Assembly: GCA_918797485.1 (NCBI GenBank)
Contig: CAKKNE010000005.1
Span: forward strand, 1,116,001-1,180,000
DNA from: Pelagomonas calceolata
Taxonomy: Eukaryota
Direction: 5' to 3'
Length of the DNA: 64,000 nt
Shown piece by piece: positions 24,230-38,560 of the stretch. The notes below the pieces were generated by a model. The model saw nothing but the letters and a program-made list of their open reading frames with translations, did no database searches and was not told where the DNA came from. Position numbers and translations under genes: made by a program. Positions within the stretch are counted from its first letter, which is position 1, and every line of letters begins with the position of its first letter.

Positions 24230-24553
24230 ATGGGCAAGGGCGGCATGGACTACAAGGGCCAGAAGCTCTCGGAACAAATTTATCTAGTACTGATCCCGGC
24301 CGTCGGGTCCGTCGCGTGGGTCTTTGGGTACCTCGCGCAGGACTTCAAAACCACTTTTTATGGGTGGCTCGCCGGTTTAGTATTGGCCATGCTCATCTGC
24401 GTGCCCGACTGGCCCATCTTCAACCGGAATCCCACTCCTTGGTTGGAGGAGATCCCGTCGGCGCGCAAGCAAACGGTGGTCGATGACGACGACGAGGACG
24501 ACGCGCCCGCGAAGGCTACGAAGGCGAAGAAGAAGAAGGGGGGGAAATCGTGA
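24230..24553 (+). CDS. SPCS1: Signal peptidase complex subunit 1 (SPC12)
   Basis: MDYKGQKLSE, two TM helices, VPDWPIFNRNP..W. Confidence 0.95.
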   Translation: MGKGGMDYKGQKLSEQIYLVLIPAVGSVAWVFGYLAQDFKTTFYGWLAGLVLAMLICVPDWPIFNRNPTPWLEEIPSARKQTVVDDDDEDDAPAKATKAKKKKGGKS

Positions 24554-25169
24554 CATAGTCTACTCCTCGCGGAGGCGCCGCATCGGCATGCTTCGGCGTG
24601 ACTAAGGCTCGGGGCGACGGCGTGCGAGGGCCGGGGGCCGGGGGCGGGGTGGGCACTACGCTCAATTTATTATGTCTCCATGCGCCTCCCCGACCGGTCC
24701 CCGAGCAGTACAGCGCCAGGAAGACTCATCCTGGCGCGGTCCCAAAAAAAGTAAGCGGCGCTGTCGGGCCCGGGCGCTGGCATTCTGTTTGCCTGTGTTG
24801 CGCCTCGCCTCGGGCGTGTAGAAGGTAAACCACCACTGCAGAAGGGCCAAGATGGCAGCCCAATCGAGTGCCAGCGGCTCCGGCAGCGATTCCGCCGATG
24901 CGCCAACAAAAAAAAAGAAAAAGCGCAAACGCAAAAAAAAATAAAGCGCTAGCGTCTGTTGAGACACTAGCAAGCAAAAGCCCAGGTTTGGCTGGTGGCC
25001 TAGTTGTGCCTTCCGCACAAGTTCGCCAACGAGCTCGACACGAGCGAGCCACGGACGCCGAGCACGCTGCGCAAGTGTCTGCTGCCCCAAAAAGCAGCAG
25101 GAAGTCCACTGAAGGGCAGCACCAAGCCCACAAAGGCCACCGCCTCCGCGAGGCACGCGACGGCCGAAG

Positions 25170-28100
25170 ATGGACCGTGGCGCTTCGCCACGAACGGGAG
25201 ATGTCGGGAGCGGGCCCGGCGGGACCAAAGATGCGCACAAGAAGGCCTTGGGGCCCCAAGACGGCGGCGGCGGTCCGTCGACGGTAATTGCTTTGGGTGG
25301 AAACGGGTCGGGCTCGTCATATCCGACGAAGCCCGTCGATCTAGATGCTGATACGAAGAAACGTTACCGTCCACGCCATTTCAAACGTGTGAAAGAACGC
25401 CGCAACCGACGTAAGCGTGATCAAGATGAACGCCTTTTCATCAAAGGTCTGAAGGCGAAGGCTACCAACGAAGAGCCGAATCGGAAAGAACGTCGCGAGG
25501 GTGTTCAGGGTTTTAAACCGCCCAAAAAAACAGTAAAATTGAGCGTTCCGCCGCCCAAGACCGTGATCGTAGATGATGGCTCAAACAAGTTTGGCTCTCT
25601 TCGTGTGGAAAGCGAAGTCCCCTCTCTTATTTCTAAGACCACAACCATCTCTACCACTACATCTGTCGAGGAAGACGTTTATTGGTCGCCATGCGAATCT
25701 ACCGATAAACCAGTTATTTCCTACAAAGTAGAAGATCTTGATCCAAAGGATGAACGTGACTCTAAGATTTGCAACGTCGTGCTGCGCGGTAATCACTATA
25801 TTAATAAACAAGAGCGTCGCACGACCTTCGTGGGGGCTCTGAAGACGCACTTCGACGCGCATAAGTCTGGTGATGACGGCCTGTCGAAGAAAGAGGTGAA
25901 CGCCGCGCTCAAGTCCTTTGCCAAGAAAGATAGAACGGGCAAGTTCCGGAAGCTCGAGGAGCTCGAGGCGCTGTTTGGAGACATGGATCTGAACGGCGCG
26001 GGCCGCGTGTCCTACGACGAGCTGACGGACTTCATCGACGACATCGACGCCGACGACATCGGCGCCGGCCGCAATCACCGCGGGAAGGGTGCCGGTGGTA
26101 TCAAAACGATTTACCTAAAAGAAGATCGTGTTCCTAAATTAGATTACATTTACCGTGAAGACCTACAAGTGACTTATTCTCTAAAATTAGGACGGTTGAA
26201 ACTGCGGTTGAAACTGCGATATATAATTCAGCAATTGGCCTTCCGTCGTCAACACAAGGTGTCATTGAAGGTGACCCACCTGATGGCTGAGACCTTCAAA
26301 CACAACTTGATGTTCCTAAACAACATTCCTAACAAAGATGTGGTGGTGTCTCATGGGCTTCTGGCGCTGCCTTCTACTTCCGCCTTCGACGGCGCGGCGA
26401 CTGCTGCGCCCGGCGAGGCGTCCTTCGAGGGCCAGCACGCGGCACTTGCGGCGCTGGGCCAGGCCGTGCTCGCGGCGCTGGGCGTGGCGTTCTTCCAGGG
26501 CTCGACTCCTATCGATGTCGTCGGGGGCTACGTTTTCTCGCTGGACGTCCTCGGCGACGCGCTATCTCTGGACGTGCTGACGAACTCAAATGTGCTTCAC
26601 AAGACGGGCTTCATGGGCGCGGCGCCCACGGTGGTCTTCTTGGGTGGTTCGGAGGGACTCAACGCCCTCTTGCTGGACGCGTCGGCGGCCGCGGCGCTCG
26701 ACGGCGTGTTCAAGGGCCTCTTCGGCGTCGCTGCGCTTCGCGGGCAACCGGTAGTCGTGGGCGCGGCGCCGGACGTGCCATGGTATAATTCTTCGGACGG
26801 CCTAGACGTCTTCTCGGGAAACCTCTGCCAGCGGGCTGGCGGCGCGCGGCTCGTGGGCGCGTTGACGGATTCATTAGATGGGCTACGGACGGCGAGCCTC
26901 GCGGTGGCGGTCGCGGACGCGGCGTGCGTCCAGGGCTCGGCTTCGCTCGACGTCGCGTTGTGTCAGAACTCGCCGCGGGCCGTCGCGCGGCTCGTGGGCG
27001 CGCTCACGGATTCACTAGATGGGCTACGGAAGGCGGGCCTCGCGGCGGCGGTCGCGGACGCGGCGTGCGTCCAGGGCTCGGCTTCGCTCGACGTCGCGTT
27101 GTGTCAGAACTCGCCGCGGGCCGTCGCGCGGCTCGTGGGCGCGTTGACGGATTCATTAGATGGGCTACGGAAGGCGGGCCTCGCGGCGGCGGTCGCGGAC
27201 GCGGCGTGCGTCCAGGGCTCGGCTTCGCTCGACGTCGCGTTGTGTCAGAACTCGCCGCGGGCCGTCGCGCGGCTCGTGGGCGCGTTGACGGATTCACTAG
27301 ATGGGCTACGGAAGGCGGGCCTCGCGGCGGCGGTCGCGGACGCGGCGTGCGTCCAGGACCCGGAGGCAGTCTTGTCCGACAAACCCTTGTTAGCGGAGGC
27401 CATGGAGGAAGATCGACTCGATAGTATGAAAGAGCAAAAAGTGATACAAATATTGGTCATGACCGCCTCGGGCGCGATGCCCTCTGTTTTTGTGAAGCCG
27501 TGGGCGACTGTCGGTGACCTCATGCTCGTGATCCAGCAGATGATGGATGTTCCCCTGTCAAAATATCAGCATCTGCAGTCCATCGGCGGCAGACCGATGC
27601 AAAACGCAGCTTTGCTCCAGCACTACGACATCCAGAATAATTCTACTGTGGTTTTGTCGGAGCCCTGGCCTGGGCATCTTCTAGGAGGCTCGTTGTTGTC
27701 GTTGAAAGAGCTCATTGACAAGGGCAGCCTAAACGTGGGCGACATCATCGTCTTCAGGGAACACAATCACCAAGAGGAAGGCGAACTGCTCGAGAACGGT
27801 TGGATCAGGCACGAGGGCACAGTCTACAAGTCGGCGAGTGCGTTCGTGGGGGCGATGCGCGGGAAACCTTCAAGCGGATATGACTTTCTCTATACGGCTA
27901 CCGGTACGCCGATCCAGTCGCTCCGCAGCGACCCCTCCGACAGTAGCTCGAACGGCGACGACTTGCGCAGCGACTCGAACAGCGACGACGAGGCGCCCCC
28001 GCAGCCGCCTGGGGACCAGCAGCTCGCGGGCCGGCGGCGGCGCCAGCCAACCGAGCGCTTTGATCATCAAACGCAAGTGGGCCAGTATTATGTGAAGCGT

Positions 28101-31100
28101 GGGTCCGCTGTGGGTGGCGCAGACGACGGTGACGACGACGTGGTCATGGAGGACGATGACGAGCAGTCCCAGCTGCAACAAGCTCTGAAAATGTCCATGC
28201 AACCTATGGGAGAGGGATTTGTGGAGGAGACGACCGCGCCGACGCTGCCAGCGACGCCGGGCGCGGCGCCGGACCACGCGCGGCCCGGCGGCGTACCGCC
28301 ACCACCTTCTCTCCCACCGGCGAAGCGCTCGCTCCAACCCGCTTCGCCGACCTCCGGGAATGTCAAAGTGTTCTTCGACGACAACTTCCTGCCTAGCGAG
28401 TCCGTTTTACAGGGACTGAGGAACGCGGGCGTCAGGATAGTGGGTCGGCCGCGCGACGCTACGCATATCGTGTGCGAGGAGCCGCTACGACTTTCGCTTA
28501 CTTTTACCGCTGCCAGCTGCGTCGTGGACCATGCAGTGACGCACGAGTGGGTAGAGGCTACCATCGAGGCCGGTCGCCCCCTAGAGGCGACGAACTACGT
28601 TGTGGACAGCCACGAGCTCGAACAAGATGTTGGATTTAATCTCGCCGATAATTTGAGGCGGAACCGTGAGGCGGTGGACCGCTCGGAATTACGCCTGCTT
28701 CAGGACAAGGTCGTGTGTGTAGATCCGGACTTTCAGTGGCGACGTGATCTATTGGATGATTTGCAGGAGATGATCGACTGCTCTGACGCGATGCGGCTCG
28801 AATTTAGTGATGTGGTCGACTTAGACGGCACCCTACCGCAAGAAGGAGCCATCATCATCTGTAAAGACGACAGTGGGCTAGTAGATGAGGCGATTGTGGA
28901 CGATATCGCGTCCCCAACCACTGTAGTAAAGTACTGGGATCTCTGTGAGTACCTTCTGAGGAGGGCGTACCCCTGGGACGAGGCTACTGGGGATGCGCAA
29001 GCCCCGGGCCAGCCACCGGCGCATGCTCCTCCTAGAGATGTAGAGGACTGGCGCTCTTTGATGGGCGCTACGGTTGTAACACCTGAAGGCAGCAATGGGC
29101 GCTGTGTTGCGCTCCACGTGGACTCATCCTCCGAAGAAGATCGGGAGCTCAGCGAATTAAGATGGGAGGCAGGAGGTTTCATAGAAGAAGGTTTGCTTCG
29201 TAGAAATGTTGGATTCGTCGAGTTCGAGGCCGTGTCGCCCAGCGATGGCTTGCCCCACGTCTTGCGCTGGGATGGTGCACCGAAGCCTAATGTGAGGGGG
29301 ACGTTCGACGTGGTTTTCGCCGACGGCACTCCAGCGACCGTCGATCGTATTATGACCTGGCTCAGACCTGACCAGTGGAGCTCTTTATCTCGGTTGCCGG
29401 ATGGGTGCTGGTGCCGCCCTCTAGCGAGGGAGCCCCAGGATGAATGGGGACGGATCGTGGGGACCCTGAGGTCGCCCGATCCAGGTCTACTTTATGAGGT
29501 TCGCATGCAAAACGAGGAACGATCTATTAGTGTGATGGAGAGCTCACTGGTTCCCATCGTCCTGGTCCGAGATACTACCGGGCATTTGTCGCCCTACGCC
29601 GTGTCGGCGCTACGGCGCCCCGCTTCGCAAGGGGCTGATGGCGGGGACGTCCAAACTGGCGGAGATCCGAGTCCGCCACCGGCTCCACCTGCTCCGCGGG
29701 AGGCACTGCCAGAGGAAGCTGGCAATTGGCCAAAAGCTTTCATTGAACTGCTGCGCGAGAAGAAGGTGAAGTGCAAATTTAAGAGTCCGAATCCCAAGCG
29801 CGGAGCAAGTGCTGCTCGCTATGATGGGTATATGCGCGCCACCAATATCGGGGATTATTACGACATCTTCCGCGGCAACATGAGTGATCTGCGGAACGAT
29901 ATCACTAAGGGCTACTGCCAGCTCGACAAATCGGAGCGCGACGACGCGTGGCTCGAGTACTTGGAGTCGGGCGAGGACTTACAGTCGAAGGCCGAGAAGC
30001 CGAAGGCCAAGAAGCCGAAGGCCAAGCCCGCCGCTAAATCGGGCGCCGGCGCCGAGGACACTACTGATGAGGACATGTTTGGCACAAATACGACCCCTCC
30101 GGCAGAGCCCCTCGTACTGCCACCTGACTGGAACGAGAGCAAGCAGCGGGCCAAGGACCCTGAGTTGGAAGCAGCGGTGTGTGCGCTGGGCGCCGCCCTC
30201 ACGGGCAAGACGAGCTTTACTAAGGAATGGGACCTACTCTTGAAGCATCGCTGTTATTGTTTTTATATTCACGAGGACGATCCAGCTAATAAAGCAGTGA
30301 AGAACCTCGAAGTGCCGATCGGTTGGCCGTCATACAAGGAGTTCAGCAAGAGCCCCAAGAAGAATAAACCTTCCAGCCTGAGGTTGTTGCGCCAATACCT
30401 CAAGTATGCACTGCAACTCGCGAAGGAAGGCGACAAATACTGCCTAGACGACGAGCAGAGCGAAAGCAATCGCTTTTGGCCGGAGGAGCGGGAGAAATTT
30501 CACGGGGCCATGGCGACGCTCAACATAAATCGGAGTGGGCGCGGCTTATCGAGGGAGGACTGCCGCCGGATCGCGGAGCACCTACCCAACAAAACACCTC
30601 AGCAGGTCCATGCGCACGCTTGTTCTTACTTCAGCTCCTTCGATGCGGAAGCGCAAGCTATTGAAAAGCTCACTAGTACTGGCGACTCCTACGTGAAGTC
30701 CGTCTTGGGCACGGACACCATCAACACGTCTGAGCTCCTCTTCTGCATCATCTCCACAGGCCGGTGGATCGATGCCAAATTCATTGAATTGAGACTGTCA
30801 AAAGCTGGCCTAGAAGCGTCACAAATACTGTGGGTTGTGGGCACCCCGGAAGAAGTGGCCAAGTACAAGTCGCAATGCTCTGGTGAAGTAGTAGTAGGAG
30901 GCGGTCTCTCTGCGTCGAGAAACAAAGCTCTAGAAACGGCCCGAGCCCGCAACCGCGTGTGCGTGCAACTGAGGGACAGTGTTTGGAAGTGCGTGGTAAT
31001 ACAGGAGGGGCCTGAGGAGGGCGGGTCGCTAGCTGATTTCTACAACAAGAACGGTCTGTGGAAAGAGCCACCGAGTCTGGAGGCGGCCAATACCACGGGC

Positions 31101-32765
31101 TCGAAGAACGTGGAGGTGACACTCGTGGCCGCGGCCTTGTTGTTGCACGATTTGATGAAAGCGAGGGACAAACGCTTGGCGGGCTGCTTCCCTGTCCCGA
31201 ACAAGGGCTTCGCCGCAAGCAAGGAACCGGTGCAGCAGCGGGAACTTGTTGATGAAAGGCTGTTGGTAATCGACCCGGAGGGCACCAAATTTGACGAATC
31301 ATTGAATTTCAGGGAGGTCGACGAGTTCACGGCGCAGCACATCCACAAGTACGACGGGATTTATAGATCAAACCGCGTGCTGTGTGTGGGACAAGGCCGC
31401 AAGGGGAAGACCTGGGTCACCCCGGAAGGACCTAGTGAAGAGGATAAACAGAACGCCATCGATTCACTGCTCAATAAGCATCGCGACTTGTTCCGTGAGA
31501 GGATCATCCACAATAGAACAACACGCCCGCACGATAGGTATGTGTTGAGTTGGGAACAGGACGCCTCTTCGGAGCCGAAGGACCAAAATGAGACCATGGA
31601 GGACGTGCAGCCCGGCGAGCAGACCGTACTGTCTACACAACTACCGTTCGACGCCGGGTCTTTGGCGGCCCTGGAATGTCCGTCGGTACCTATGCGAGAA
31701 CTGACCCCAGAGGACAAATTTATACGCTTCGCGTTTCTGGCGCGCGAGACGGTCGAGTGTGAGAACGGTAGAGAAAGCAAGGCTGCCCTGATTGTACCAC
31801 ACGAAGCGGGGAAAGAACACGAACCCCATAAGGGTCAGCTTCGCGTGCTCGCTCAGTTAGTGAAAGGTAGGTTCACCCACAAGGTGAAGTTCGCATCACG
31901 TGCTTCTAAAAAGCTTACTATTTTGGGCGAGGACGATTATGGCTTCGAATTTAAACCGACGGAGGCGCCTGCGATGTACAGAGATACGGAGTGCATTTTT
32001 GTGCTGGATCCCAGGGCCAAGGGTAGTTCTTTCATACCCCGATGTGCCCATGCGAAAGGTTTTGTCACACTCGCCCCTGGATGTGCGTGCGGCTTAGAGT
32101 GCCCTGGTTCTCAAATGGAGATCCACCAGCACCATATCACTGCGCATGAACGCGACTGCCTCTTGGCCCCATCCACACACTGCATCAACAGTGGGTTGCT
32201 CGCCAGCGGCATTTGGGGAAGGCAACGACCCTTACACGAGCAGCTCAACAAGCTCTGGGGGATGATCAAGCATCAACATTCCATTAACGATAAAACCTTT
32301 GTCCATCTAGCCGAGATCTCGGTTCCAGTTGAAACTAACCAAAAGTCTGGCGAAGCATATCCTGGAAATGCTACTCTAATGAATGCATTCAAACCAGGCG
32401 GCGAATTATCTAAGCACTTGAAAGTAGCTGATCCTACTCGTGTACATGAGCTGCTGCCAGAGGGTCTGCCCGACGACGTCGCGACGGGGGGCACGTACTA
32501 CGAACTCAAGAAGGATAGTGAAAAATACTTCCCGTTCTGGGGCCGGGACACGCTTCTCTATTACGAATCGAAAAAAACGCTGTCCGTTGTTTATGGGAAA
32601 TGCCCCATAACAGGAGTGGGCGGACGAAAGACGAAAAGAACCACTCGGCTCCTTGTGCTACACCACATCACAGTCGATAAAAATAAGGAATGCTTTGTTG
32701 GCTTCATCAACGACAATGTGAACAGGGGCCTCGGCAGCACCGACGCCCCGGATCCGTTTGCCTAG
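25170..32765 (+). CDS. 2531-aa mosaic protein: EF-hand, 47-aa repeats, ubiquitin-like, RAMA-like, UIM, BRCT, SANT/Myb, GREB1/TAGT-like glycosyltransferase fold
   Basis: Uninterrupted 7.6-kb ORF; domain motifs listed in findings. Confidence 0.8.
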   Translation: MDRGASPRTGDVGSGPGGTKDAHKKALGPQDGGGGPSTVIALGGNGSGSSYPTKPVDLDADTKKRYRPRHFKRVKERRNRRKRDQDERLFIKGLKAKATNEEPNRKERREGVQGFKPPKKTVKLSVPPPKTVIVDDGSNKFGSLRVESEVPSLISKTTTISTTTSVEEDVYWSPCESTDKPVISYKVEDLDPKDERDSKICNVVLRGNHYINKQERRTTFVGALKTHFDAHKSGDDGLSKKEVNAALKSFAKKDRTGKFRKLEELEALFGDMDLNGAGRVSYDELTDFIDDIDADDIGAGRNHRGKGAGGIKTIYLKEDRVPKLDYIYREDLQVTYSLKLGRLKLRLKLRYIIQQLAFRRQHKVSLKVTHLMAETFKHNLMFLNNIPNKDVVVSHGLLALPSTSAFDGAATAAPGEASFEGQHAALAALGQAVLAALGVAFFQGSTPIDVVGGYVFSLDVLGDALSLDVLTNSNVLHKTGFMGAAPTVVFLGGSEGLNALLLDASAAAALDGVFKGLFGVAALRGQPVVVGAAPDVPWYNSSDGLDVFSGNLCQRAGGARLVGALTDSLDGLRTASLAVAVADAACVQGSASLDVALCQNSPRAVARLVGALTDSLDGLRKAGLAAAVADAACVQGSASLDVALCQNSPRAVARLVGALTDSLDGLRKAGLAAAVADAACVQGSASLDVALCQNSPRAVARLVGALTDSLDGLRKAGLAAAVADAACVQDPEAVLSDKPLLAEAMEEDRLDSMKEQKVIQILVMTASGAMPSVFVKPWATVGDLMLVIQQMMDVPLSKYQHLQSIGGRPMQNAALLQHYDIQNNSTVVLSEPWPGHLLGGSLLSLKELIDKGSLNVGDIIVFREHNHQEEGELLENGWIRHEGTVYKSASAFVGAMRGKPSSGYDFLYTATGTPIQSLRSDPSDSSSNGDDLRSDSNSDDEAPPQPPGDQQLAGRRRRQPTERFDHQTQVGQYYVKRGSAVGGADDGDDDVVMEDDDEQSQLQQALKMSMQPMGEGFVEETTAPTLPATPGAAPDHARPGGVPPPPSLPPAKRSLQPASPTSGNVKVFFDDNFLPSESVLQGLRNAGVRIVGRPRDATHIVCEEPLRLSLTFTAASCVVDHAVTHEWVEATIEAGRPLEATNYVVDSHELEQDVGFNLADNLRRNREAVDRSELRLLQDKVVCVDPDFQWRRDLLDDLQEMIDCSDAMRLEFSDVVDLDGTLPQEGAIIICKDDSGLVDEAIVDDIASPTTVVKYWDLCEYLLRRAYPWDEATGDAQAPGQPPAHAPPRDVEDWRSLMGATVVTPEGSNGRCVALHVDSSSEEDRELSELRWEAGGFIEEGLLRRNVGFVEFEAVSPSDGLPHVLRWDGAPKPNVRGTFDVVFADGTPATVDRIMTWLRPDQWSSLSRLPDGCWCRPLAREPQDEWGRIVGTLRSPDPGLLYEVRMQNEERSISVMESSLVPIVLVRDTTGHLSPYAVSALRRPASQGADGGDVQTGGDPSPPPAPPAPREALPEEAGNWPKAFIELLREKKVKCKFKSPNPKRGASAARYDGYMRATNIGDYYDIFRGNMSDLRNDITKGYCQLDKSERDDAWLEYLESGEDLQSKAEKPKAKKPKAKPAAKSGAGAEDTTDEDMFGTNTTPPAEPLVLPPDWNESKQRAKDPELEAAVCALGAALTGKTSFTKEWDLLLKHRCYCFYIHEDDPANKAVKNLEVPIGWPSYKEFSKSPKKNKPSSLRLLRQYLKYALQLAKEGDKYCLDDEQSESNRFWPEEREKFHGAMATLNINRSGRGLSREDCRRIAEHLPNKTPQQVHAHACSYFSSFDAEAQAIEKLTSTGDSYVKSVLGTDTINTSELLFCIISTGRWIDAKFIELRLSKAGLEASQILWVVGTPEEVAKYKSQCSGEVVVGGGLSASRNKALETARARNRVCVQLRDSVWKCVVIQEGPEEGGSLADFYNKNGLWKEPPSLEAANTTGSKNVEVTLVAAALLLHDLMKARDKRLAGCFPVPNKGFAASKEPVQQRELVDERLLVIDPEGTKFDESLNFREVDEFTAQHIHKYDGIYRSNRVLCVGQGRKGKTWVTPEGPSEEDKQNAIDSLLNKHRDLFRERIIHNRTTRPHDRYVLSWEQDASSEPKDQNETMEDVQPGEQTVLSTQLPFDAGSLAALECPSVPMRELTPEDKFIRFAFLARETVECENGRESKAALIVPHEAGKEHEPHKGQLRVLAQLVKGRFTHKVKFASRASKKLTILGEDDYGFEFKPTEAPAMYRDTECIFVLDPRAKGSSFIPRCAHAKGFVTLAPGCACGLECPGSQMEIHQHHITAHERDCLLAPSTHCINSGLLASGIWGRQRPLHEQLNKLWGMIKHQHSINDKTFVHLAEISVPVETNQKSGEAYPGNATLMNAFKPGGELSKHLKVADPTRVHELLPEGLPDDVATGGTYYELKKDSEKYFPFWGRDTLLYYESKKTLSVVYGKCPITGVGGRKTKRTTRLLVLHHITVDKNKECFVGFINDNVNRGLGSTDAPDPFA
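26844..27357 (+). repeat. 141-bp coding tandem repeat, about 3.6 copies
   Basis: Near-identical units start at 26844, 26985, 27126, 27267. Confidence 0.95.
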
Positions 32766-32776
32766 TTCGCACCCGC

Positions 32777-33125
32777 CGTGCATTATATATAGCGGAGGCA
32801 CGACCGCGGTCCTACTATTAGAGTCGGTATCGCCGACATGTCGACGCTTAGTCGACGCCTACAATTCATTACGTGTGCGAGGCCATGAGTCAGAGACGCC
32901 GACGAGGCCATGAGGACACTCGCGGGTCGTGTATTATATATAGCGGAGGCACGACCGCGGTCCTACCATTATCTTTAGTACAACAGACGAGTATGGAGAT
33001 TACTAGGATGGACCCCCACGGATTTAGTACAATTGTCCACCGCGGATTTACTACGGACACCGCGGTATTACTATGGATCCATACGGATTTAGTACAACGC
33101 GCCGCTGCGAATTTACTACGGACAC
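32777..33125. repeat. Non-coding direct repeats (44 bp x2 at period 151; degenerate 65-bp period pair)
   Basis: ATTATATATAGCGGAGGCACGACCGCGGTCCTAC at 32782 and 32933; CGGATTTAGTACAA at 33019/33084; ATTTACTACGGACAC at 33046/33111. Confidence 0.9.
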
Positions 33126-33466
33126 GTGAGCGGCGAGCACGACGCTCGACGGAGCGGATCGTGCAAGAAGAAAACTTTGGGTTAGATTACCGAGCGTCGG
33201 AAGGCCCCCGAGGTCAGGTCGGCGTCCGTGGCCACCATCTGCCGAATGGTGGTCGCGTATAGAGGCGAGCGGCCGGGAACGGATCGGACTGATTATTGCG
33301 ACAGGACCGGACTGTTAGGGCCGCCCACGGTTGCTGTGCGACGCCCCGCGCGGGGGGCATTTCGCACGCGGCCGTGTTAGTGTAATGTCTATAAGAAGTA
33401 TTTCTAGTAAGAAGTATTCTCTACAGAACCACAACCCGCTTTGAGCGCGGCCGACCTAACTCAAGA

Positions 33467-33853
33467 TTAATTAGTATCCCATCTTAGCCGTCCCTGCCAG
33501 TACGCCCGGTTTATCGTATCTAGTTTTACGGTGCAGAGCGTCACGAGGCAGAGCCGGTCTTGCCGGAGCGCGGCGACGTCGGCGGAGAGGTCGCGCCTCC
33601 ACTCGTGCGTTTTCTTGGCCTTGCGGCGGCCGGGCAGCATGCAGAAGCCGACGCGACCCGCGGCGTCGGGCAGGCCCGCGCGCGATAGGAAGGCGACGGC
33701 CAGCGGGTGCGACGCCGAGGTGAACACCGGCGGGGGCACCGTCTCGCTGCGGGTCCAGCGGTGCCAAAAATACCTCAGCGGAGGATTACGACCCTTGGTC
33801 CGTCCGTCGCGGAGGATCAACCCTTCGAAGGGAGTCCTGTACCTTGGCTTCAT
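33467..33853 (-). pseudogene. Probable 3'-truncated CDKN3-like/dual-specificity phosphatase fragment
   Basis: GRVGFCMLPGRR...RRDLSADVAALR...LVTL; the ORF ends before any HCX5R motif. Confidence 0.5.
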
Positions 33854-34288
33854 ATAGTCGGGCGTACAAGTCTGCTCTCACACACAGCTGGCAGCCACAA
33901 TAATGAATGCGCTGCCCAGGCTGCAAACGGTGCTGCCCCGGACGTAATGACTGCGTTGCCAGGCTGCGAAAACAGCTCTCCATGTAAACAACGAGGAGCC
34001 TCTCACTCCTAAGGAGGCGTCCTCTTGCGAGAATGTCGATCTGTTTGTCTGCCCTTCGGGAGCGTTCCTGAAAGTCCAGGCAAATTCTCCGGCTCAGCCG
34101 TCCCGAGAGCTGGACGAACCGTCCAGCCCTCCCTCTCGCATGACTCACACAGCCACGCCCCAGCAGCTTTCCCCATGGTTGTAGGGATATCGGAGCAAAC
34201 GCCAACTCGCGAGTGCGAGAAGAGGTTCGAACACAGATGCTTACGTCGTAGAGAGGGGGGAGAGAGAGTCGGGCCTTGTGCACGCAAC

Positions 34289-37200
34289 TCAGTTCTTGCC
34301 GGGACCCCAGTCGTCGTCGGAGTCGTCGGAGTCGTCCTTGGGCCGCTTTCGTTTGACCTTCTTGCGCGGCTTCTTGGGCGGCTCCATCGACGACGTGCGC
34401 TTGAGCGGCTGGTCCTTGGGCGGCCGGCCGCGCGGCTTCTTCGGACGGTCTTGTAAATCGCCGTCGTCCTGCTCTTCAGCTAATAATCGGCCGAGATCCA
34501 CGACCAGCGACGAGCGCACGGACCCGCCCCGGTTCGTCCCGACGGCCGCCAGCGCACTGCGAGAGAAGAGCGGCCCGCACACCAGCGGAGAATCGTCACG
34601 AATCGCACCTAACTGTTTATCGCAGTCGCCGTCGTAGGCCGCACACCGCGCGTCGCCCAATCGGTGCCTTCGCTTGATGTGGGCCTTCAAGCGACACAAC
34701 AACGAAAAAGCACCACATCTAGCGGCATCTCTAGCAGACACGTCAGAAGCATCCCTCAGCGACTCATGGAGAGCAGCCCCATCGAGCGCACAAGCCCGGG
34801 CACACGCTCGAATAACCATGAGCGGCTCGTCGGCCGTCCGGAACGGCAACGAACCCAGGGCCCTACAGGTGGCCGCCCGTTTCCCGAGCCAATTTGATAA
34901 ATCTCCGTCTTTCGCAGGGAGGTCGTTCGGCGTGACGAAGACATCCAAAGCGGACTTGAGGGCCTTGGCCCTCGCTGCTCTACCTTCGCAGCACACTTGG
35001 TACGACGTCCCGACGGCCTTGAGGATGGGTAGCGGGATTTCGTCGGAGTAGCGTCTCGCCGACGCGCACGCGTCCGCGAAGCCTTCCGAGAAGCGTAAGG
35101 CTACGAGTTGCGGTCTCTTGGCAGCGGTCTCCCTCAAAGCATCCGCGGCGGCGTCCCGGACCTTTTGCAGCTCGTCGCCATGTCTTCCGACTAGTAGAGG
35201 CGCTATATCTCGGGGATTCGCGAGGCCGTGCCTCAGGACACCGTTCAGGAACGTGACTGACGCGCATCTCACGTCCCCATCGCGGTCTTCCAAGAGTGTA
35301 GAAGCCCTCGCTAAGCAAGCCTGGGCGCACGCCGCCGCGGCCTGGAAGGCGCCCTCGGCGTCCTCTCTCAATGACTCATCATTGCATACGACACTTCGCA
35401 CGGACTCCGAATCGGAAGCGTGCTGCGCTCGAGCGGCTCGATCGCACCCATCCAGGACGTCCGCCCAGCCTCGCAAGGAAGCAGCTCTCACAGAAGCGTG
35501 GGGATGACTTAACAACCTCTCCAACAATCCGTCTGAACGTGCAGCGTTCGCGAGGCGCGGCGCGCCGGCGACAGACGCACACGCCGCGGAAGCCGCTCGC
35601 GCCGCCGCGGCATCATTGGAAGACGCCTCGCGCGCGACACACGCAAACACGGCGCCGTGCGGGTCCCGCATCCGCGCTAATGTACTGGGCTCGCTCTCGT
35701 CGTCCGGAGCGCCTCTGGCCAGGCCGCACGCCCAATCTTTTGCCACACATCCTAGCACTAAGGCCGCCCGTCCCACGTGCCTTCTCCTCCTCAGCAAGTC
35801 GTGACACAATGCGGCCAAACGCCACAGCGATCTTCCAGCCTCGGTGTTCGACCTCGTTGCGTCCAAGGCAGCGAGACAAGCGACGGCTGCCGTCGTCGGC
35901 GCGCTTCCTCGGGAGTTCAGGGCGGCCTTCTCGAGATCAGGTGAACATCTAGCTGCCAAGGAAGCTGATGCTGGTCTAGGTAGAGCACTACACGCGGCGT
36001 GAATGATCTCCGCGGCCTTTTGCACCGCTGCGGACTCGCCCTTCTCATCCAACCCGTTGTCGCCTCGCAGATAGGGTGCTATCACATCTAATGAGGGAGC
36101 CACGGTTTCCGGAGCGCTCCGCGCGAAGGCTCGGATCGCACTCAGTGTCATGACAACATCAGAAGCGCTCTCTTCGGTCAAGGAACCAGTTATGATAGTG
36201 TGCTTGTCCGGCGTCGTCTGGGGCGTGACCTTCCCGTCCGAGCGGGATCCGTCCAATCTAACCAAGTGATCAGCCAAGTGCGCGACGTGCTGTTGGGCTC
36301 GCAATCGCGCAGACGCCGCCTTCCTGGACTTCCCGTCCTGCTCCGTGAGGGCCATGGCGAAGACCGCCCCGATCGTTTGGTCATCTCCGGCCGCAGACAC
36401 GACGTCCACAACTTGCCTCGTAATTGGGTCGAGGCGATACGCGGCCTCCTTGATGCGAGGAGCGTCCGTGACGCTGGGAGACACGCGCGGCAACAAGCGA
36501 GGCGCCGCCACGTCAGCAACGGGCGCGAACCAGGCCTCGCGGATGCAGTCTCTCACTAAGTCCTTGACCGTTCGTTCCTCACTCGGACGAGCGGCACATC
36601 TAACAAGAGCAGCTAACGTGCGCGCCCGCGCATCGGGCGGTATTCTCGCATCCGTCAGCGTCGTCTTTAGGCGGCGGGCGGTGGCTTTTCTGACGGCTAG
36701 GCCCGCATCTCTCAGTCTCTTCAAGAGGTCCTCTTCGTAATGAACGAAGAGCGACGGCTGCTGCTGGCACTTCGTGCCGCACACTTCCACCGCGGCGAGT
36801 CTGACACTGGGAGACTCGTCGGCGAACCTAGACCGCATGGCCTGCTGGACGACGTCTCTTTCCAGTAGGTGATCACACGACGCTCGGCCTAGGGCTCTTA
36901 GTGCTTTGTCCCGCACCTTCGGCTGAAGGTGGGCCAGCAAGCCTACCAATTGCTTCGCTAGTAATGATAACCCTCGCGCCAATGGTGAACCTTGGACAAT
37001 AGCGCACGCGACGCCTCGCAATTTGTCGCGCGGTAGAGCTGCGTCCCACGAAGCTCTTCGAACTCTCGCCACGTCCCTGCCCGCGAATTGCGATGCTAAA
37101 TGGCGCTTCAACGCCTTGGCCGAGTCGGGGAGCTCGGCGTGCCATTTTGCCACACTGTATCTAAGAGCTTCGCCACAGAGCGGCTCTGACGACGAGCGCG

Positions 37201-38560
37201 CCTCGAGGCCGTTGAGCTGGAGCTGCTGGAACGCCACCAACGCTTCCAAGCGCTGGTTCTCCTCGGGCACGTCACAAGCCCCGCCTTGCTCTTGCACGAC
37301 TGGTGTTACTGATGAGGTAGCCCGTTTTGTTACTGCAGAGACGCCGCCCACAATGACAGCCAGCAAGTCCCCGAGGAAGCACACATAAGGTTCGGCCTTT
37401 CGATCCGACGGGGCCTTCCTCAGTTCTGTGCTAGCAGATCGAGCTAACGACCTTAACACGCTTTCACTTGATGAGGACCAGGCCGGCGCTTCTAACGCCG
37501 CAACTAGATCTGACGAGAAGGCTAGAGCTAGGTCGCGCCAGTCGCTTTCGTTCGGGCCCTCCCGGCACCTTCTGAGTAGAGCTCCCGTCAACGCATTTGA
37601 ACATCTTTCACTTTCCGTCACAGACGGGACCTCCTCCGCCAGAGGCACGCAGGCCTCGGTGATAACTAAGGCCAGGACCGACGCCCACCGCGCGGAACCG
37701 CCCAAATCATCATCTAGAGCTATTCTCGAAGAAGACGTCTCCGTCCGTAAGACATCTAACCAGTCTTCTAGTAATGCGGCTCGATGCGACGGGTAGCTTC
37801 GAGCCGCAGCGCGCCACACTAACAAAGCGGTTGGCGTGCCCCTGGTCTGTAGTATAACACCAGCAGCACCACAGGCGGCCGCGACCGCGGCGTCCTCCAA
37901 TGCCCGGGAAGCGATGAGGTCTGATAATGCAGTCAACCCCTCCTCGACGTCGAGGCCGGCGCGCGCCTGGCGCCGTAATTGCTGAGCCCGCTCGTTTGTT
38001 CTTTCGGCAGAGGCGTACGCGCCGCCGCGCTCCGAGGCTAGTGTGAGTGTGGTAGCGCAGGCCTCTAAAGCTACTTGGTCATCCTTGCAGGCGTCGTCGA
38101 GCAGCTGGCAGGCCCTTTCTTCGTCGTTCGTGGCGCACTGCGCGAGCGCGCGGACGTCGTCCTTCGTTAACGACTCCTTGGCTTCGAGCGCGTTCAGGAG
38201 AGCGAGGGCGTCCTCCGGCGGCGCTGCTTGCTTCTTCGGCGGCCGGCCGCGCTTCTTCGGCGGCGCGGCCGGCGGCGCGTCCGTGCGGCGCCGCTTCTCG
38301 GGCGGCGGCTTCGAAACGACGGCCTCGCCGCGCTTCTGGCGCATCTTGCTTTTCAGGGAGGGCTCGGCGTAGCTCGCGGGCGAGCCGGCGCTTCGCCGGC
38401 GGCCCGTCGTGCTCGTCGGCAAGGGCGCGAGCGGCGGCCGCGGCGGGCTCGCGGCGCGCTTCTTGCTCGCGAAGACGTGGCCGCAGGGGCACCTCGCCTT
38501 CCTGGCGTGGACCTTGGCGTCGCAGGCCGGGCAGGTTTTTTGGGGGCCGCGGCCACTCAT
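34289..38560 (-). CDS. NIPBL: Cohesin loader Scc2/Nipped-B-like
   Basis: HEAT motifs VRDKALRAL, DESPSVRLAAVE, LRDAGLAVRK; C-terminal LRHGLANPRDIAPLL and LPFRTADEPLMVI. Confidence 0.88.
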   Translation of the reverse strand: MSGRGPQKTCPACDAKVHARKARCPCGHVFASKKRAASPPRPPLAPLPTSTTGRRRSAGSPASYAEPSLKSKMRQKRGEAVVSKPPPEKRRRTDAPPAAPPKKRGRPPKKQAAPPEDALALLNALEAKESLTKDDVRALAQCATNDEERACQLLDDACKDDQVALEACATTLTLASERGGAYASAERTNERAQQLRRQARAGLDVEEGLTALSDLIASRALEDAAVAAACGAAGVILQTRGTPTALLVWRAAARSYPSHRAALLEDWLDVLRTETSSSRIALDDDLGGSARWASVLALVITEACVPLAEEVPSVTESERCSNALTGALLRRCREGPNESDWRDLALAFSSDLVAALEAPAWSSSSESVLRSLARSASTELRKAPSDRKAEPYVCFLGDLLAVIVGGVSAVTKRATSSVTPVVQEQGGACDVPEENQRLEALVAFQQLQLNGLEARSSSEPLCGEALRYSVAKWHAELPDSAKALKRHLASQFAGRDVARVRRASWDAALPRDKLRGVACAIVQGSPLARGLSLLAKQLVGLLAHLQPKVRDKALRALGRASCDHLLERDVVQQAMRSRFADESPSVRLAAVEVCGTKCQQQPSLFVHYEEDLLKRLRDAGLAVRKATARRLKTTLTDARIPPDARARTLAALVRCAARPSEERTVKDLVRDCIREAWFAPVADVAAPRLLPRVSPSVTDAPRIKEAAYRLDPITRQVVDVVSAAGDDQTIGAVFAMALTEQDGKSRKAASARLRAQQHVAHLADHLVRLDGSRSDGKVTPQTTPDKHTIITGSLTEESASDVVMTLSAIRAFARSAPETVAPSLDVIAPYLRGDNGLDEKGESAAVQKAAEIIHAACSALPRPASASLAARCSPDLEKAALNSRGSAPTTAAVACLAALDATRSNTEAGRSLWRLAALCHDLLRRRRHVGRAALVLGCVAKDWACGLARGAPDDESEPSTLARMRDPHGAVFACVAREASSNDAAAARAASAACASVAGAPRLANAARSDGLLERLLSHPHASVRAASLRGWADVLDGCDRAARAQHASDSESVRSVVCNDESLREDAEGAFQAAAACAQACLARASTLLEDRDGDVRCASVTFLNGVLRHGLANPRDIAPLLVGRHGDELQKVRDAAADALRETAAKRPQLVALRFSEGFADACASARRYSDEIPLPILKAVGTSYQVCCEGRAARAKALKSALDVFVTPNDLPAKDGDLSNWLGKRAATCRALGSLPFRTADEPLMVIRACARACALDGAALHESLRDASDVSARDAARCGAFSLLCRLKAHIKRRHRLGDARCAAYDGDCDKQLGAIRDDSPLVCGPLFSRSALAAVGTNRGGSVRSSLVVDLGRLLAEEQDDGDLQDRPKKPRGRPPKDQPLKRTSSMEPPKKPRKKVKRKRPKDDSDDSDDDWGPGKN

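What the first reader, a model, noticed from the sequence alone, without database searches (positions are those of the whole stretch)
25170..32765. Giant mosaic ORF coupling chromatin modules to a GREB1/TET-associated glycosyltransferase-like domain
Seen in order: EF-hand (DMDLNGAGRVSYDE, ~25850-26045), 47-aa repeats, ubiquitin-like (~27440-27690), RAMA-like (SLKELIDKGSL..G.LLENGWI..YKSASAF, ~27695-27920), UIM (QLQQALKMSM), tandem BRCT-like (~28360-28975), an NPK..SAARY..Y module (~29740-29930), SHAQKYF-type SANT (~30470-30635), a GT-A-like region (~30735-31500: CIISTGR, LSASRNKALETA, CVQLRDS, FDESLNFREVDEFTAQHI..YRSNR), and about 350 unassigned C-terminal aa. Established: TAGT/GREB1/JGT-family enzymes glycosylate oxidised DNA bases (base J, phage DNA), and RAMA is proposed to read modified DNA. 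Inference: a possible DNA-modification reader/writer. The expected acidic DDD appears as RDS, so the domain may be catalytically dead.
Basis: partly seen in the sequence, partly recalled or inferred. Interest (0 to 1): 0.8.

Follow-up and report, generated by a model that had tools for sequence, protein, structure and literature searches.

The report
Dead sugar-transferase fused to probable nuclease
A marine alga carries a real, transcribed 2,531-residue gene in which DNA- and chromatin-binding modules and a DNA sugar-transferase that has lost its catalytic residues sit in front of a doubled domain that is likely a DNA-cutting enzyme, so the protein likely finds and cuts DNA rather than decorating it.

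Summary
The 2531-aa ORF (25170-32765, +) is real: an annotated Pelagomonas calceolata protein, transcribed on the + strand, and collinear with an independent 5-kb contig. EF-hand, 47-aa repeats and RAMA are confirmed; ubiquitin-like, UIM, first BRCT and Myb are weak hits. The GT region is TAGT-like and groups with the intact stand-alone pelagophyte TAGT, but it has lost the DxD-type Asp, the xED motif, the C-His and NxGG together, so it is very likely not a writer. Both copies keep His-His...Asn; the second is predicted as beta-beta-alpha and aligns in register with phage endonuclease VII. That match is weak (P 0.007) and three fold searches found no nuclease, so the assignment is likely, not shown. 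The gene belongs to a recombining family of variants (73-97% identical, patchwork differences, pN/pS about 1.2), with short in-frame forms lacking the dead GT and the putative nuclease residues. Best reading: a chromatin-targeted nuclease in a genetic conflict, with the dead TAGT as a binding module. Interest 0.6.

The parts
25170..32765 (+). Whole ORF, 2531 aa (P0001)
   Evidence: + strand polyA reads in all 30 bins of X24
25170..26351 (+). N-terminal 394 codons that are shared with the short 407-aa forms
   Evidence: P0004, P0006; joint 26351>32724
25842..26036 (+). EF-hand pair
   Evidence: PF13499 31.9 bits, above cut-off, as fragment
26843..27357 (+). 47-aa tandem repeats (141 nt x 3.7), no family
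27438..27665 (+). Ubiquitin-like domain (weak)
   Evidence: PF00240 E 0.0015
27696..27932 (+). RAMA domain
   Evidence: PF18755 37 bits, above cut-off, as fragment
28158..28202 (+). UIM (weak); the segment 27940-28185 is duplicated or swapped in other family members
   Evidence: PF02809 E 0.06; joints; P0005
28359..28973 (+). BRCT-like region; first copy weakly supported, second by eye only; variable patch aa 1120-1138
   Evidence: PF16770 E 0.0008
29730..29939 (+). NPK..S..RY module, unassigned
   Evidence: no Pfam, NCBIfam or PDB hit; weak match to P0050, E 0.004 in a small local set
30471..30635 (+). Myb/SANT domain; last helix differs sharply between versions (14 nonsynonymous, 1 synonymous change)
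   Evidence: PF00249 E 0.005
30678..31559 (+). TAGT-family GT-A domain with degenerate active site (R1935-D-S1937 at 30972-30980; E2029-R2030; R2048-E-V-D2051 at 31311-31322; G2076 for the conserved His)
32052..32204 (+). Putative His-Me finger, first copy (H2321, H2322, N2340)
   Evidence: repeat 1 vs repeat 2, probability 97%, E 5e-11; invariant in 15-16 family variants; low pLDDT
32577..32738 (+). Putative His-Me finger, second copy (C2478, H2498, H2499 at 32661-32666, N2518 at 32721)
   Evidence: invariant in alignment A2 and 20 of 20 covering variants; predicted strand-strand-helix; weak EndoVII match
26352..32723 (+). 6372 nt (2124 codons, in frame) missing from the short forms; ends right after the N2518 codon; ends CA..AC, not splice sites
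25556..26228 (+). 673 nt missing from another short form; ends CA..TT
32777..33125 (.). Downstream direct repeats: 44 nt x2 (32777, 32928) and about 60 nt x2 (33001, 33066)
   Evidence: L001 holds one 44-nt copy

Best explanation
The gene encodes a large multi-module protein that likely binds DNA and chromatin through its front modules and a catalytically dead TAGT domain and likely cuts DNA with a doubled His-Me-finger (HNH/EndoVII-like) domain at its end. Shown: the ORF, its transcription, the module order, the TAGT origin and loss of four catalytic motifs, the tandem C-terminal repeat with invariant His-His...Asn, and many variant and shortened versions. Inferred: (1) the repeat is a nuclease, its two copies forming a built-in pair; (2) Myb, RAMA, the NPK module and the dead TAGT, whose pocket has gained arginines, choose the target, while BRCT, UIM and the ubiquitin-like domain tie it to chromatin or damage signals; (3) copies exchange patches by recombination, changing specificity, as expected in a genetic conflict (a selfish nuclease or defence against foreign DNA); (4) the short forms are nuclease-less deletion derivatives.
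For: GT dead: of 50 columns conserved in at least 70% of 129 relatives and aligned to the query, 18 are lost, including D 125/125, K 125/125, D 123/123, Y 123/123 and H 114/117 (its positions are one too low, corrected). NxGG is replaced too. The same changed motifs stand in all 3-5 covering family variants, so it is an old derived state. It groups with the intact stand-alone TAGT of Aureococcus at 100/100 on a branch of 1.76. Nuclease: C, HH and G-L-G are invariant or nearly so over 20 rows down to 25% identity. The only polar residues shared by both repeats are HH and N. AlphaFold2 puts HH in a strand (335-342), then a strand, then N in the first turn of a helix (355-362), at pLDDT 66-73, the layout that PMC5714182 describes for His-Me fingers. 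Repeat 2 aligns in register with 14 phage EndoVII cores, P 0.007, 0 of 100 column shuffles reaching the score. In repeat 2, 89 of 131 columns vary among family variants while the motif block does not. Family: L001 is 96.9% identical, with 550 identical codons next to dense patches; 21 further variants are 73-95% identical; several versions occur in one sample of a species reported haploid.
Against: No significant sequence or structure match to any nuclease: PDB profile searches 0 hits; Pfam, PHROGs and NCBIfam none; EndoVII HMM E 0.6 or worse and whole-domain HHalign probability 1.3%; repeat 1 reached by 5 of 100 and the joint profile by 10 of 100 shuffles. The model has mean pLDDT 52 and 189 of 371 residues under 50. 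Three of four EndoVII zinc cysteines are missing. pN/pS between window and L001 is 1.01 in the GT and 1.18 in the C-terminus, which fits relaxed selection as well as diversification; the Myb patch alone is not significant (P 0.13). L001 has a frameshift before the C-terminal domain. Expression is low (depth 1-3 over 26357-27409 in the best run) and no full-length mRNA is shown. Nothing here shows what the dead TAGT binds.
Confidence: 0.45

Rival explanations
1. A mobile or segmentally duplicated gene family whose nuclease serves its own spread, while the front modules and the GT are captured host fragments drifting without function; the short forms are non-autonomous copies.
For: pN/pS about 1; frameshift in L001; deletions with non-splice ends, including a third in P0007; only 7 cluster members against 84 for the neighbouring SPC12; GC3 swings from 0.38 to 0.88 along the ORF; the GT is a copy of a host-type gene.
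Against: No terminal inverted repeats in 24400-33600; no transposase, RT or Rep domain; a 7.6-kb frame stays open; GT columns vary less among variants (47 of 227, from few rows) than repeat 2 (89 of 131) and the changed motifs are fixed.
Confidence: 0.25
2. A non-cutting chromatin adaptor: it reads a modified base or chromatin mark through RAMA and the dead TAGT, and the C-terminal repeat is a metal- or DNA-binding domain of another fold.
For: No fold or profile match to nucleases; RAMA fused to BRCT and other chromatin domains is described in eukaryotes (PMC4738411 passage); intact TAGTs among the relatives are fused to Chromo and MBD.
Against: His-His...Asn conserved in both repeats and in the predicted His-Me positions; rapid patchwork change is unusual for a housekeeping adaptor (inference).
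Confidence: 0.2
3. One reading: an active DNA-base glycosyltransferase (writer) with built-in readers, using a metal-independent variant site.
For: GT-A enzymes such as GT14 lost DxD and use basic side chains (PMC7185993 passage); the query gains Arg at 1935, 2030 and 2048 and keeps S..R, RN and FDE.
Against: DxD-type, xED, C-His and NxGG are all changed; loss of DxD plus xED marks the inactive COSMC in the same paper; the relatives keep a median 91% of the conserved columns.
Confidence: 0.07
4. Assembly chimera or untranscribed junk.
For: No read or contig spans the ORF; the joint at 26351 is bridged only marginally in the long form.
Against: Independent contig collinear over 5 kb; P0005 identical over the last 1392 aa; zero-difference contigs from two studies and stranded polyA reads.
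Confidence: 0.03

Closest known systems
TET/JBP-associated glycosyltransferases (TAGT, PF20691; JGT, GREB1 GT domain)
   Same: Same GT-A family; 39-41% identity to the stand-alone pelagophyte TAGT cluster that includes Aureococcus EGB07407.1
   Different: All four catalytic motifs changed; no GREB1 zinc/helicase part; fused to a probable nuclease
T4 endonuclease VII / Endonuclease_7 and other His-Me finger nucleases
   Same: Cys, then His-His at a strand, short loop, Asn in the first helix turn, in register
   Different: Two copies in one chain, only one zinc-site Cys, no significant profile or fold match; relatives found only in marine metagenome and algal data
Prokaryotic reader-nuclease fusions of type IV (modification-dependent) restriction, e.g. 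RAMA-HNH, wH-HNH, GmrSD
   Same: A proposed modified-DNA reader in one chain with an HNH-type nuclease (PMC4738411, PMC11037411, PMC5714182 passages)
   Different: Eukaryotic nuclear gene with BRCT, UIM, Myb and ubiquitin-like parts; a dead glycosyltransferase as candidate reader was not seen in these passages
Eukaryotic RAMA chromatin proteins (MPND/MYSM1 paralogues, RAMA-BRCT fusions)
   Same: RAMA with BRCT and ubiquitin-related modules
   Different: No JAB/MPN domain; carries TAGT and a probable nuclease; multi-version and fast-changing
Crinkler/CR-type modular conflict proteins (recalled, paper not seen)
   Same: Recombining modular family with a ubiquitin-like domain and a C-terminal nuclease-like domain
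   Different: The ubiquitin-like domain lies at aa 757-832, not at the N-terminus; no CR family hit in Pfam

Membership tests
TAGT/JGT/GREB1 glycosyltransferases | Sequence homology to the TAGT GT-A domain | tested here: met
   Atlas 0.97-0.98; relatives at E down to 1e-53, three of which pass the PF20691 cut-off; own Pfam score is below cut-off
TAGT/JGT/GREB1 glycosyltransferases | DxD-type metal motif (SDD in relatives) | tested here: not met
   RDS; second Asp 125/125 in relatives
TAGT/JGT/GREB1 glycosyltransferases | xED catalytic-base motif (KEDY in relatives) | tested here: not met
   REVD; K 125/125, D 123/123, Y 123/123 lost
TAGT/JGT/GREB1 glycosyltransferases | C-terminal His and NxGG | tested here: not met
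   His 114/117 and GG 113/113 replaced
TAGT/JGT/GREB1 glycosyltransferases | TET/JBP dioxygenase partner in the genome | not testable with these tools
   no genome held; PF12851 absent from a supplement table that was cut when stored, which decides nothing
GREB1 | N-terminal zinc domain and permuted inactive SF2 helicase (PMC7968844 passage) | tested here: not met
   no helicase or GREB1 family in Pfam scan
His-Me finger nucleases | Catalytic His in the first strand, preceded by D/E/H | tested here: met
   H2498-H2499 invariant, in predicted strand 335-342 of the model
His-Me finger nucleases | Metal-binding Asn/His in the first turn of the core helix | tested here: met
   N2518 (model 358) in helix 355-362; 20 of 20 variants
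His-Me finger nucleases | Significant profile or structure match to a known member | tested here: inconclusive
   repeat 2 vs EndoVII P 0.007, probability 5%; no member listed, with a half-confident model
Endonuclease VII (PF02945) | Two CxxC zinc pairs | tested here: not met
   only C2478 is conserved
His-Me finger nucleases | Nuclease activity | not testable with these tools
   needs bench assay
RAMA domain | PF18755 above cut-off | tested here: met
   37 bits vs 35.2 as fragment; 31.8 in the whole protein
DNA transposon | Terminal inverted repeats and a transposase | tested here: not met
   none within 24400-33600; ends further out not excluded
Crinkler/CR proteins | N-terminal ubiquitin-like header (recalled) | tested here: not met
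   ubiquitin-like domain is internal, aa 757-832

The most novel reading that the evidence does not exclude
A eukaryotic modification-dependent restriction nuclease: a TAGT copy turned from writer into reader of oxidised or sugar-modified bases (or of its absence), which with RAMA steers a tandem HNH nuclease to viral or rival DNA in one of the ocean's most abundant algae; versions swap specificity patches, and the abundant nuclease-less short forms act as regulators or antidotes.
Probability: 0.12. Interest if true: 0.88.

Novelty: new variant of a known kind. Interest (0 to 1): 0.6.

Why it matters
Reader-nuclease fusions are the core of prokaryotic modification-dependent restriction; a eukaryotic nuclear version with a repurposed DNA glycosyltransferase would point to DNA-modification-based self/non-self recognition in a dominant open-ocean alga. 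The C-terminal repeat is an unannotated family (no Pfam hit) that can be tested with one purified 370-aa domain. The intact pelagophyte TAGT from which the dead copy derives makes a second question testable: whether these algae carry base-J-like glycosylated DNA.

Tried and rejected
C-terminus as a degenerate TET/JBP dioxygenase (idea from recalled motifs): dropped once relatives showed a tandem His-His...Asn repeat and no 2OG-Fe family hit. AlphaFold2 without alignment: pLDDT 32. Fold searches with the alignment-based model gave no E under 0.001 in PDB or BFVD and only Z 2.4-2.9 rows in the wide search; this neither supports nor excludes a small His-Me finger. Atlas had no usable hit for the C-terminus. 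No relatives in viral contigs, prokaryotic genomes or phage records. No full-length (1392-4430 aa) relatives of the GT plus C-terminus. Short forms as spliced mRNA: ends are CA..TT and CA..AC and they carry linked SNPs, so deletion copies are more likely, but a DNA run holding the joints was not found; X19 lacks them but does not cover 24668-27586, and contigs drop rare variants. Short form as the empty site of an insertion: rejected because it keeps the last 12-13 residues of the putative nuclease domain. Four look-ups of earlier scan notes returned nothing. The original TAGT paper (10.1093/nar/gkt573) is not held. No complex prediction was run.

Full report
What it is. The frame 25170-32765 (+) is open for 2531 codons between SPC12 and a NIPBL-like gene. 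The exact protein is in NCBI nr, and members of its cluster and of a neighbour's cluster are named Pelagomonas calceolata. No genome was held, so paralogues could not be counted directly. Two papers report the species as homozygous or haploid (PMC9481584 and 10.1101/2024.10.30.620910, passages).

Is it real? Stranded polyA reads from four runs of one sample cover the ORF on the + strand; the best run covers 30 of 30 bins, at depth 1-3 over 26357-27409 and 16-47 over 29867-32674. Zero-difference contigs from two other studies tile most of it, and a run that behaves as DNA crosses 32724 unbroken. An independent contig, L001, is collinear over 27863-32820 at 96.9%, and P0005 is identical over the last 1392 aa. 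No record spans the whole ORF, and the long form's passage across 26351 is bridged only marginally.

Front modules. As fragments, EF-hand and RAMA pass Pfam cut-offs; ubiquitin-like, first BRCT, Myb and UIM are weak; the second BRCT, aa 1271-1520 and the NPK module have no hit. The 47-aa repeat is a 141-nt array. RAMA was proposed as a 6mA reader, fused to nucleases including HNH in prokaryotes and to BRCT and other chromatin domains in eukaryotes (PMC4738411, passages); a preference for methylated DNA could not be confirmed for MPND (PMC11037411, one passage; PMC9963953 and PMC6591016 seen as search listing only).

The glycosyltransferase. The Atlas places aa 1851-2137 with TAGT clusters at 0.97-0.98. 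The full HMMER search gave 208 hits, of which the best 150 were listed; 3 of the 58 proteins scanned pass the TAGT cut-off. I aligned 129 of 145 GT relatives (16 dropped for covering under 150 profile positions). Of 65 columns conserved in at least 70%, 15 lay in a tail that the aligner left unaligned for the query; of the other 50 the query keeps 32, while relatives keep a median 91% and at least 62%. Lost are the second Asp of SDD, GD, K, D and Y of KEDY, the C-terminal His and NxGG. These match the DxD, xED and C-His elements of GT-A enzymes; single losses are tolerated in some families, but loss of DxD and xED marks the inactive COSMC (PMC7185993, passages). Family variants carry the same changed motifs. 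In a tree of 27 chosen rows the domain sits with the intact stand-alone TAGT cluster that includes Aureococcus EGB07407.1 (100/100, branch 1.76); so long a branch calls for caution, but it is also the best BLAST relative (39%). GREB1 has a helicase-like part and glycosylates protein (PMC7968844, passages); neither applies here.

The C-terminus. The search found distant relatives (25-40%) of aa 2161-2531, some as stand-alone 335-376-aa proteins, none with a Pfam, PHROGs or NCBIfam name. The domain is a tandem duplication (probability 95-97%, E 5e-8 and 5e-11), and both copies keep His-His and a later Asn. The alignment-based model is confident only for residues 238-360 of 371, where it gives strand (with His-His), strand, helix (Asn in the first turn), the His-Me finger layout (PMC5714182, passages). 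Against 14 phage EndoVII cores fetched here, repeat 2 aligns Cys, His, Asn and Gly in register with P 0.007 and 0 of 100 shuffles; repeat 1 gives 5 of 100, the joint profile 10 of 100, and the whole domain a probability of 1.3%. Fold and PDB profile searches list no nuclease of this fold. I put the His-Me assignment at about 0.7.

A recombining family. Window against L001, 1632 codons: 105 nonsynonymous and 27 synonymous changes, pN/pS 1.19; aa 1254-1803 are identical, then the Myb helix shows 14 against 1, and BRCT, GT and C-terminus hold dense patches; L001 has a +1 frameshift. The Myb excess alone is not significant (P 0.13). Twenty-one more variants are 73-95% identical, and all that cover them keep the His and Asn residues. 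RNA holds two joints without splice ends, 25555>26229 and 26351>32724 (6-56 and 2-34 reads per run; also in contigs of two studies). The second is in frame, gives 407-aa proteins on record (P0004, P0006) and removes everything up to the Asn codon. Its reads share SNPs with L001. More than two versions in one sample of a haploid species suggest paralogues (inference). No terminal inverted repeats were found.

How it likely works. The front modules and the dead TAGT would choose a DNA or chromatin target and the doubled finger would cut it; recombination among copies would change the target. This works like prokaryotic reader-nuclease fusions but is not a member of a defined system, and it is not an active TAGT. 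Rivals are a selfish nuclease with drifting cargo (0.25), a non-cutting adaptor (0.2), an active writer (0.07) and artefact (0.03).

Novelty. Ten paper searches listed no paper on this protein or on a dead TAGT fused to an HNH domain. The original TAGT paper was not held and may list such fusions; the Crinkler comparison is recalled. One supplement file of PMC9481584 could not be read and its gene table was cut. PMC5741180 (one passage) confirms JGT is GT-A. Verdict: new variant of a known kind, interest 0.6.

Noticed in passing
P0033 cluster, incl. P0225: An intact, conserved stand-alone TAGT (about 390 aa, 56 members) in Aureococcus and marine metagenomes; pelagophytes may make glycosylated DNA bases.
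   Followed up: partly
P0088, P0089, P0099, P0119, P0136, P0139, P0158, P0168: TAGT-like domains fused to an ATP-dependent DNA ligase; others fused to Chromo (P0043) or MBD (P0121).
   Followed up: no
P0069, P0100, P0182, P0184, P0186: Stand-alone 335-376-aa proteins made of the same tandem His-His...Asn repeat, without any Pfam family; hosts unknown.
   Followed up: partly
window 32675-33376: + strand RNA depth (53-87) is well above that of the ORF body, over a 3' region with 44-nt and 60-nt direct repeats.
   Followed up: no
window 33467-34046 (-): A short, highly expressed transcript between the ORF and the NIPBL-like gene, with a 136-aa frame; not identified.
   Followed up: no
L002 4983-5837 (Synechococcus phage S-CBWM1 gp9): Weak TAGT-like match (E 7e-4 to P0002) beside a SNF2 gene and a glucose-1-phosphate thymidylyltransferase.
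   Followed up: no
window 27940-28263: RNA joints show duplication (28185>27940) and replacement (27974>28263) of the UIM segment in other versions; P0005 has two UIM-like motifs.
   Followed up: partly
window 34292-38560 (-): NIPBL-like protein has a Shugoshin_C motif hit (33.5 bits, aa 54-74) near its N-terminus.
   Followed up: no
window 24847-25034: Most RNA reads lack the base at 24847 (90 of 112 in X24) and many lack 25034-25035, so the 5' region read is mostly that of other versions.
   Followed up: no
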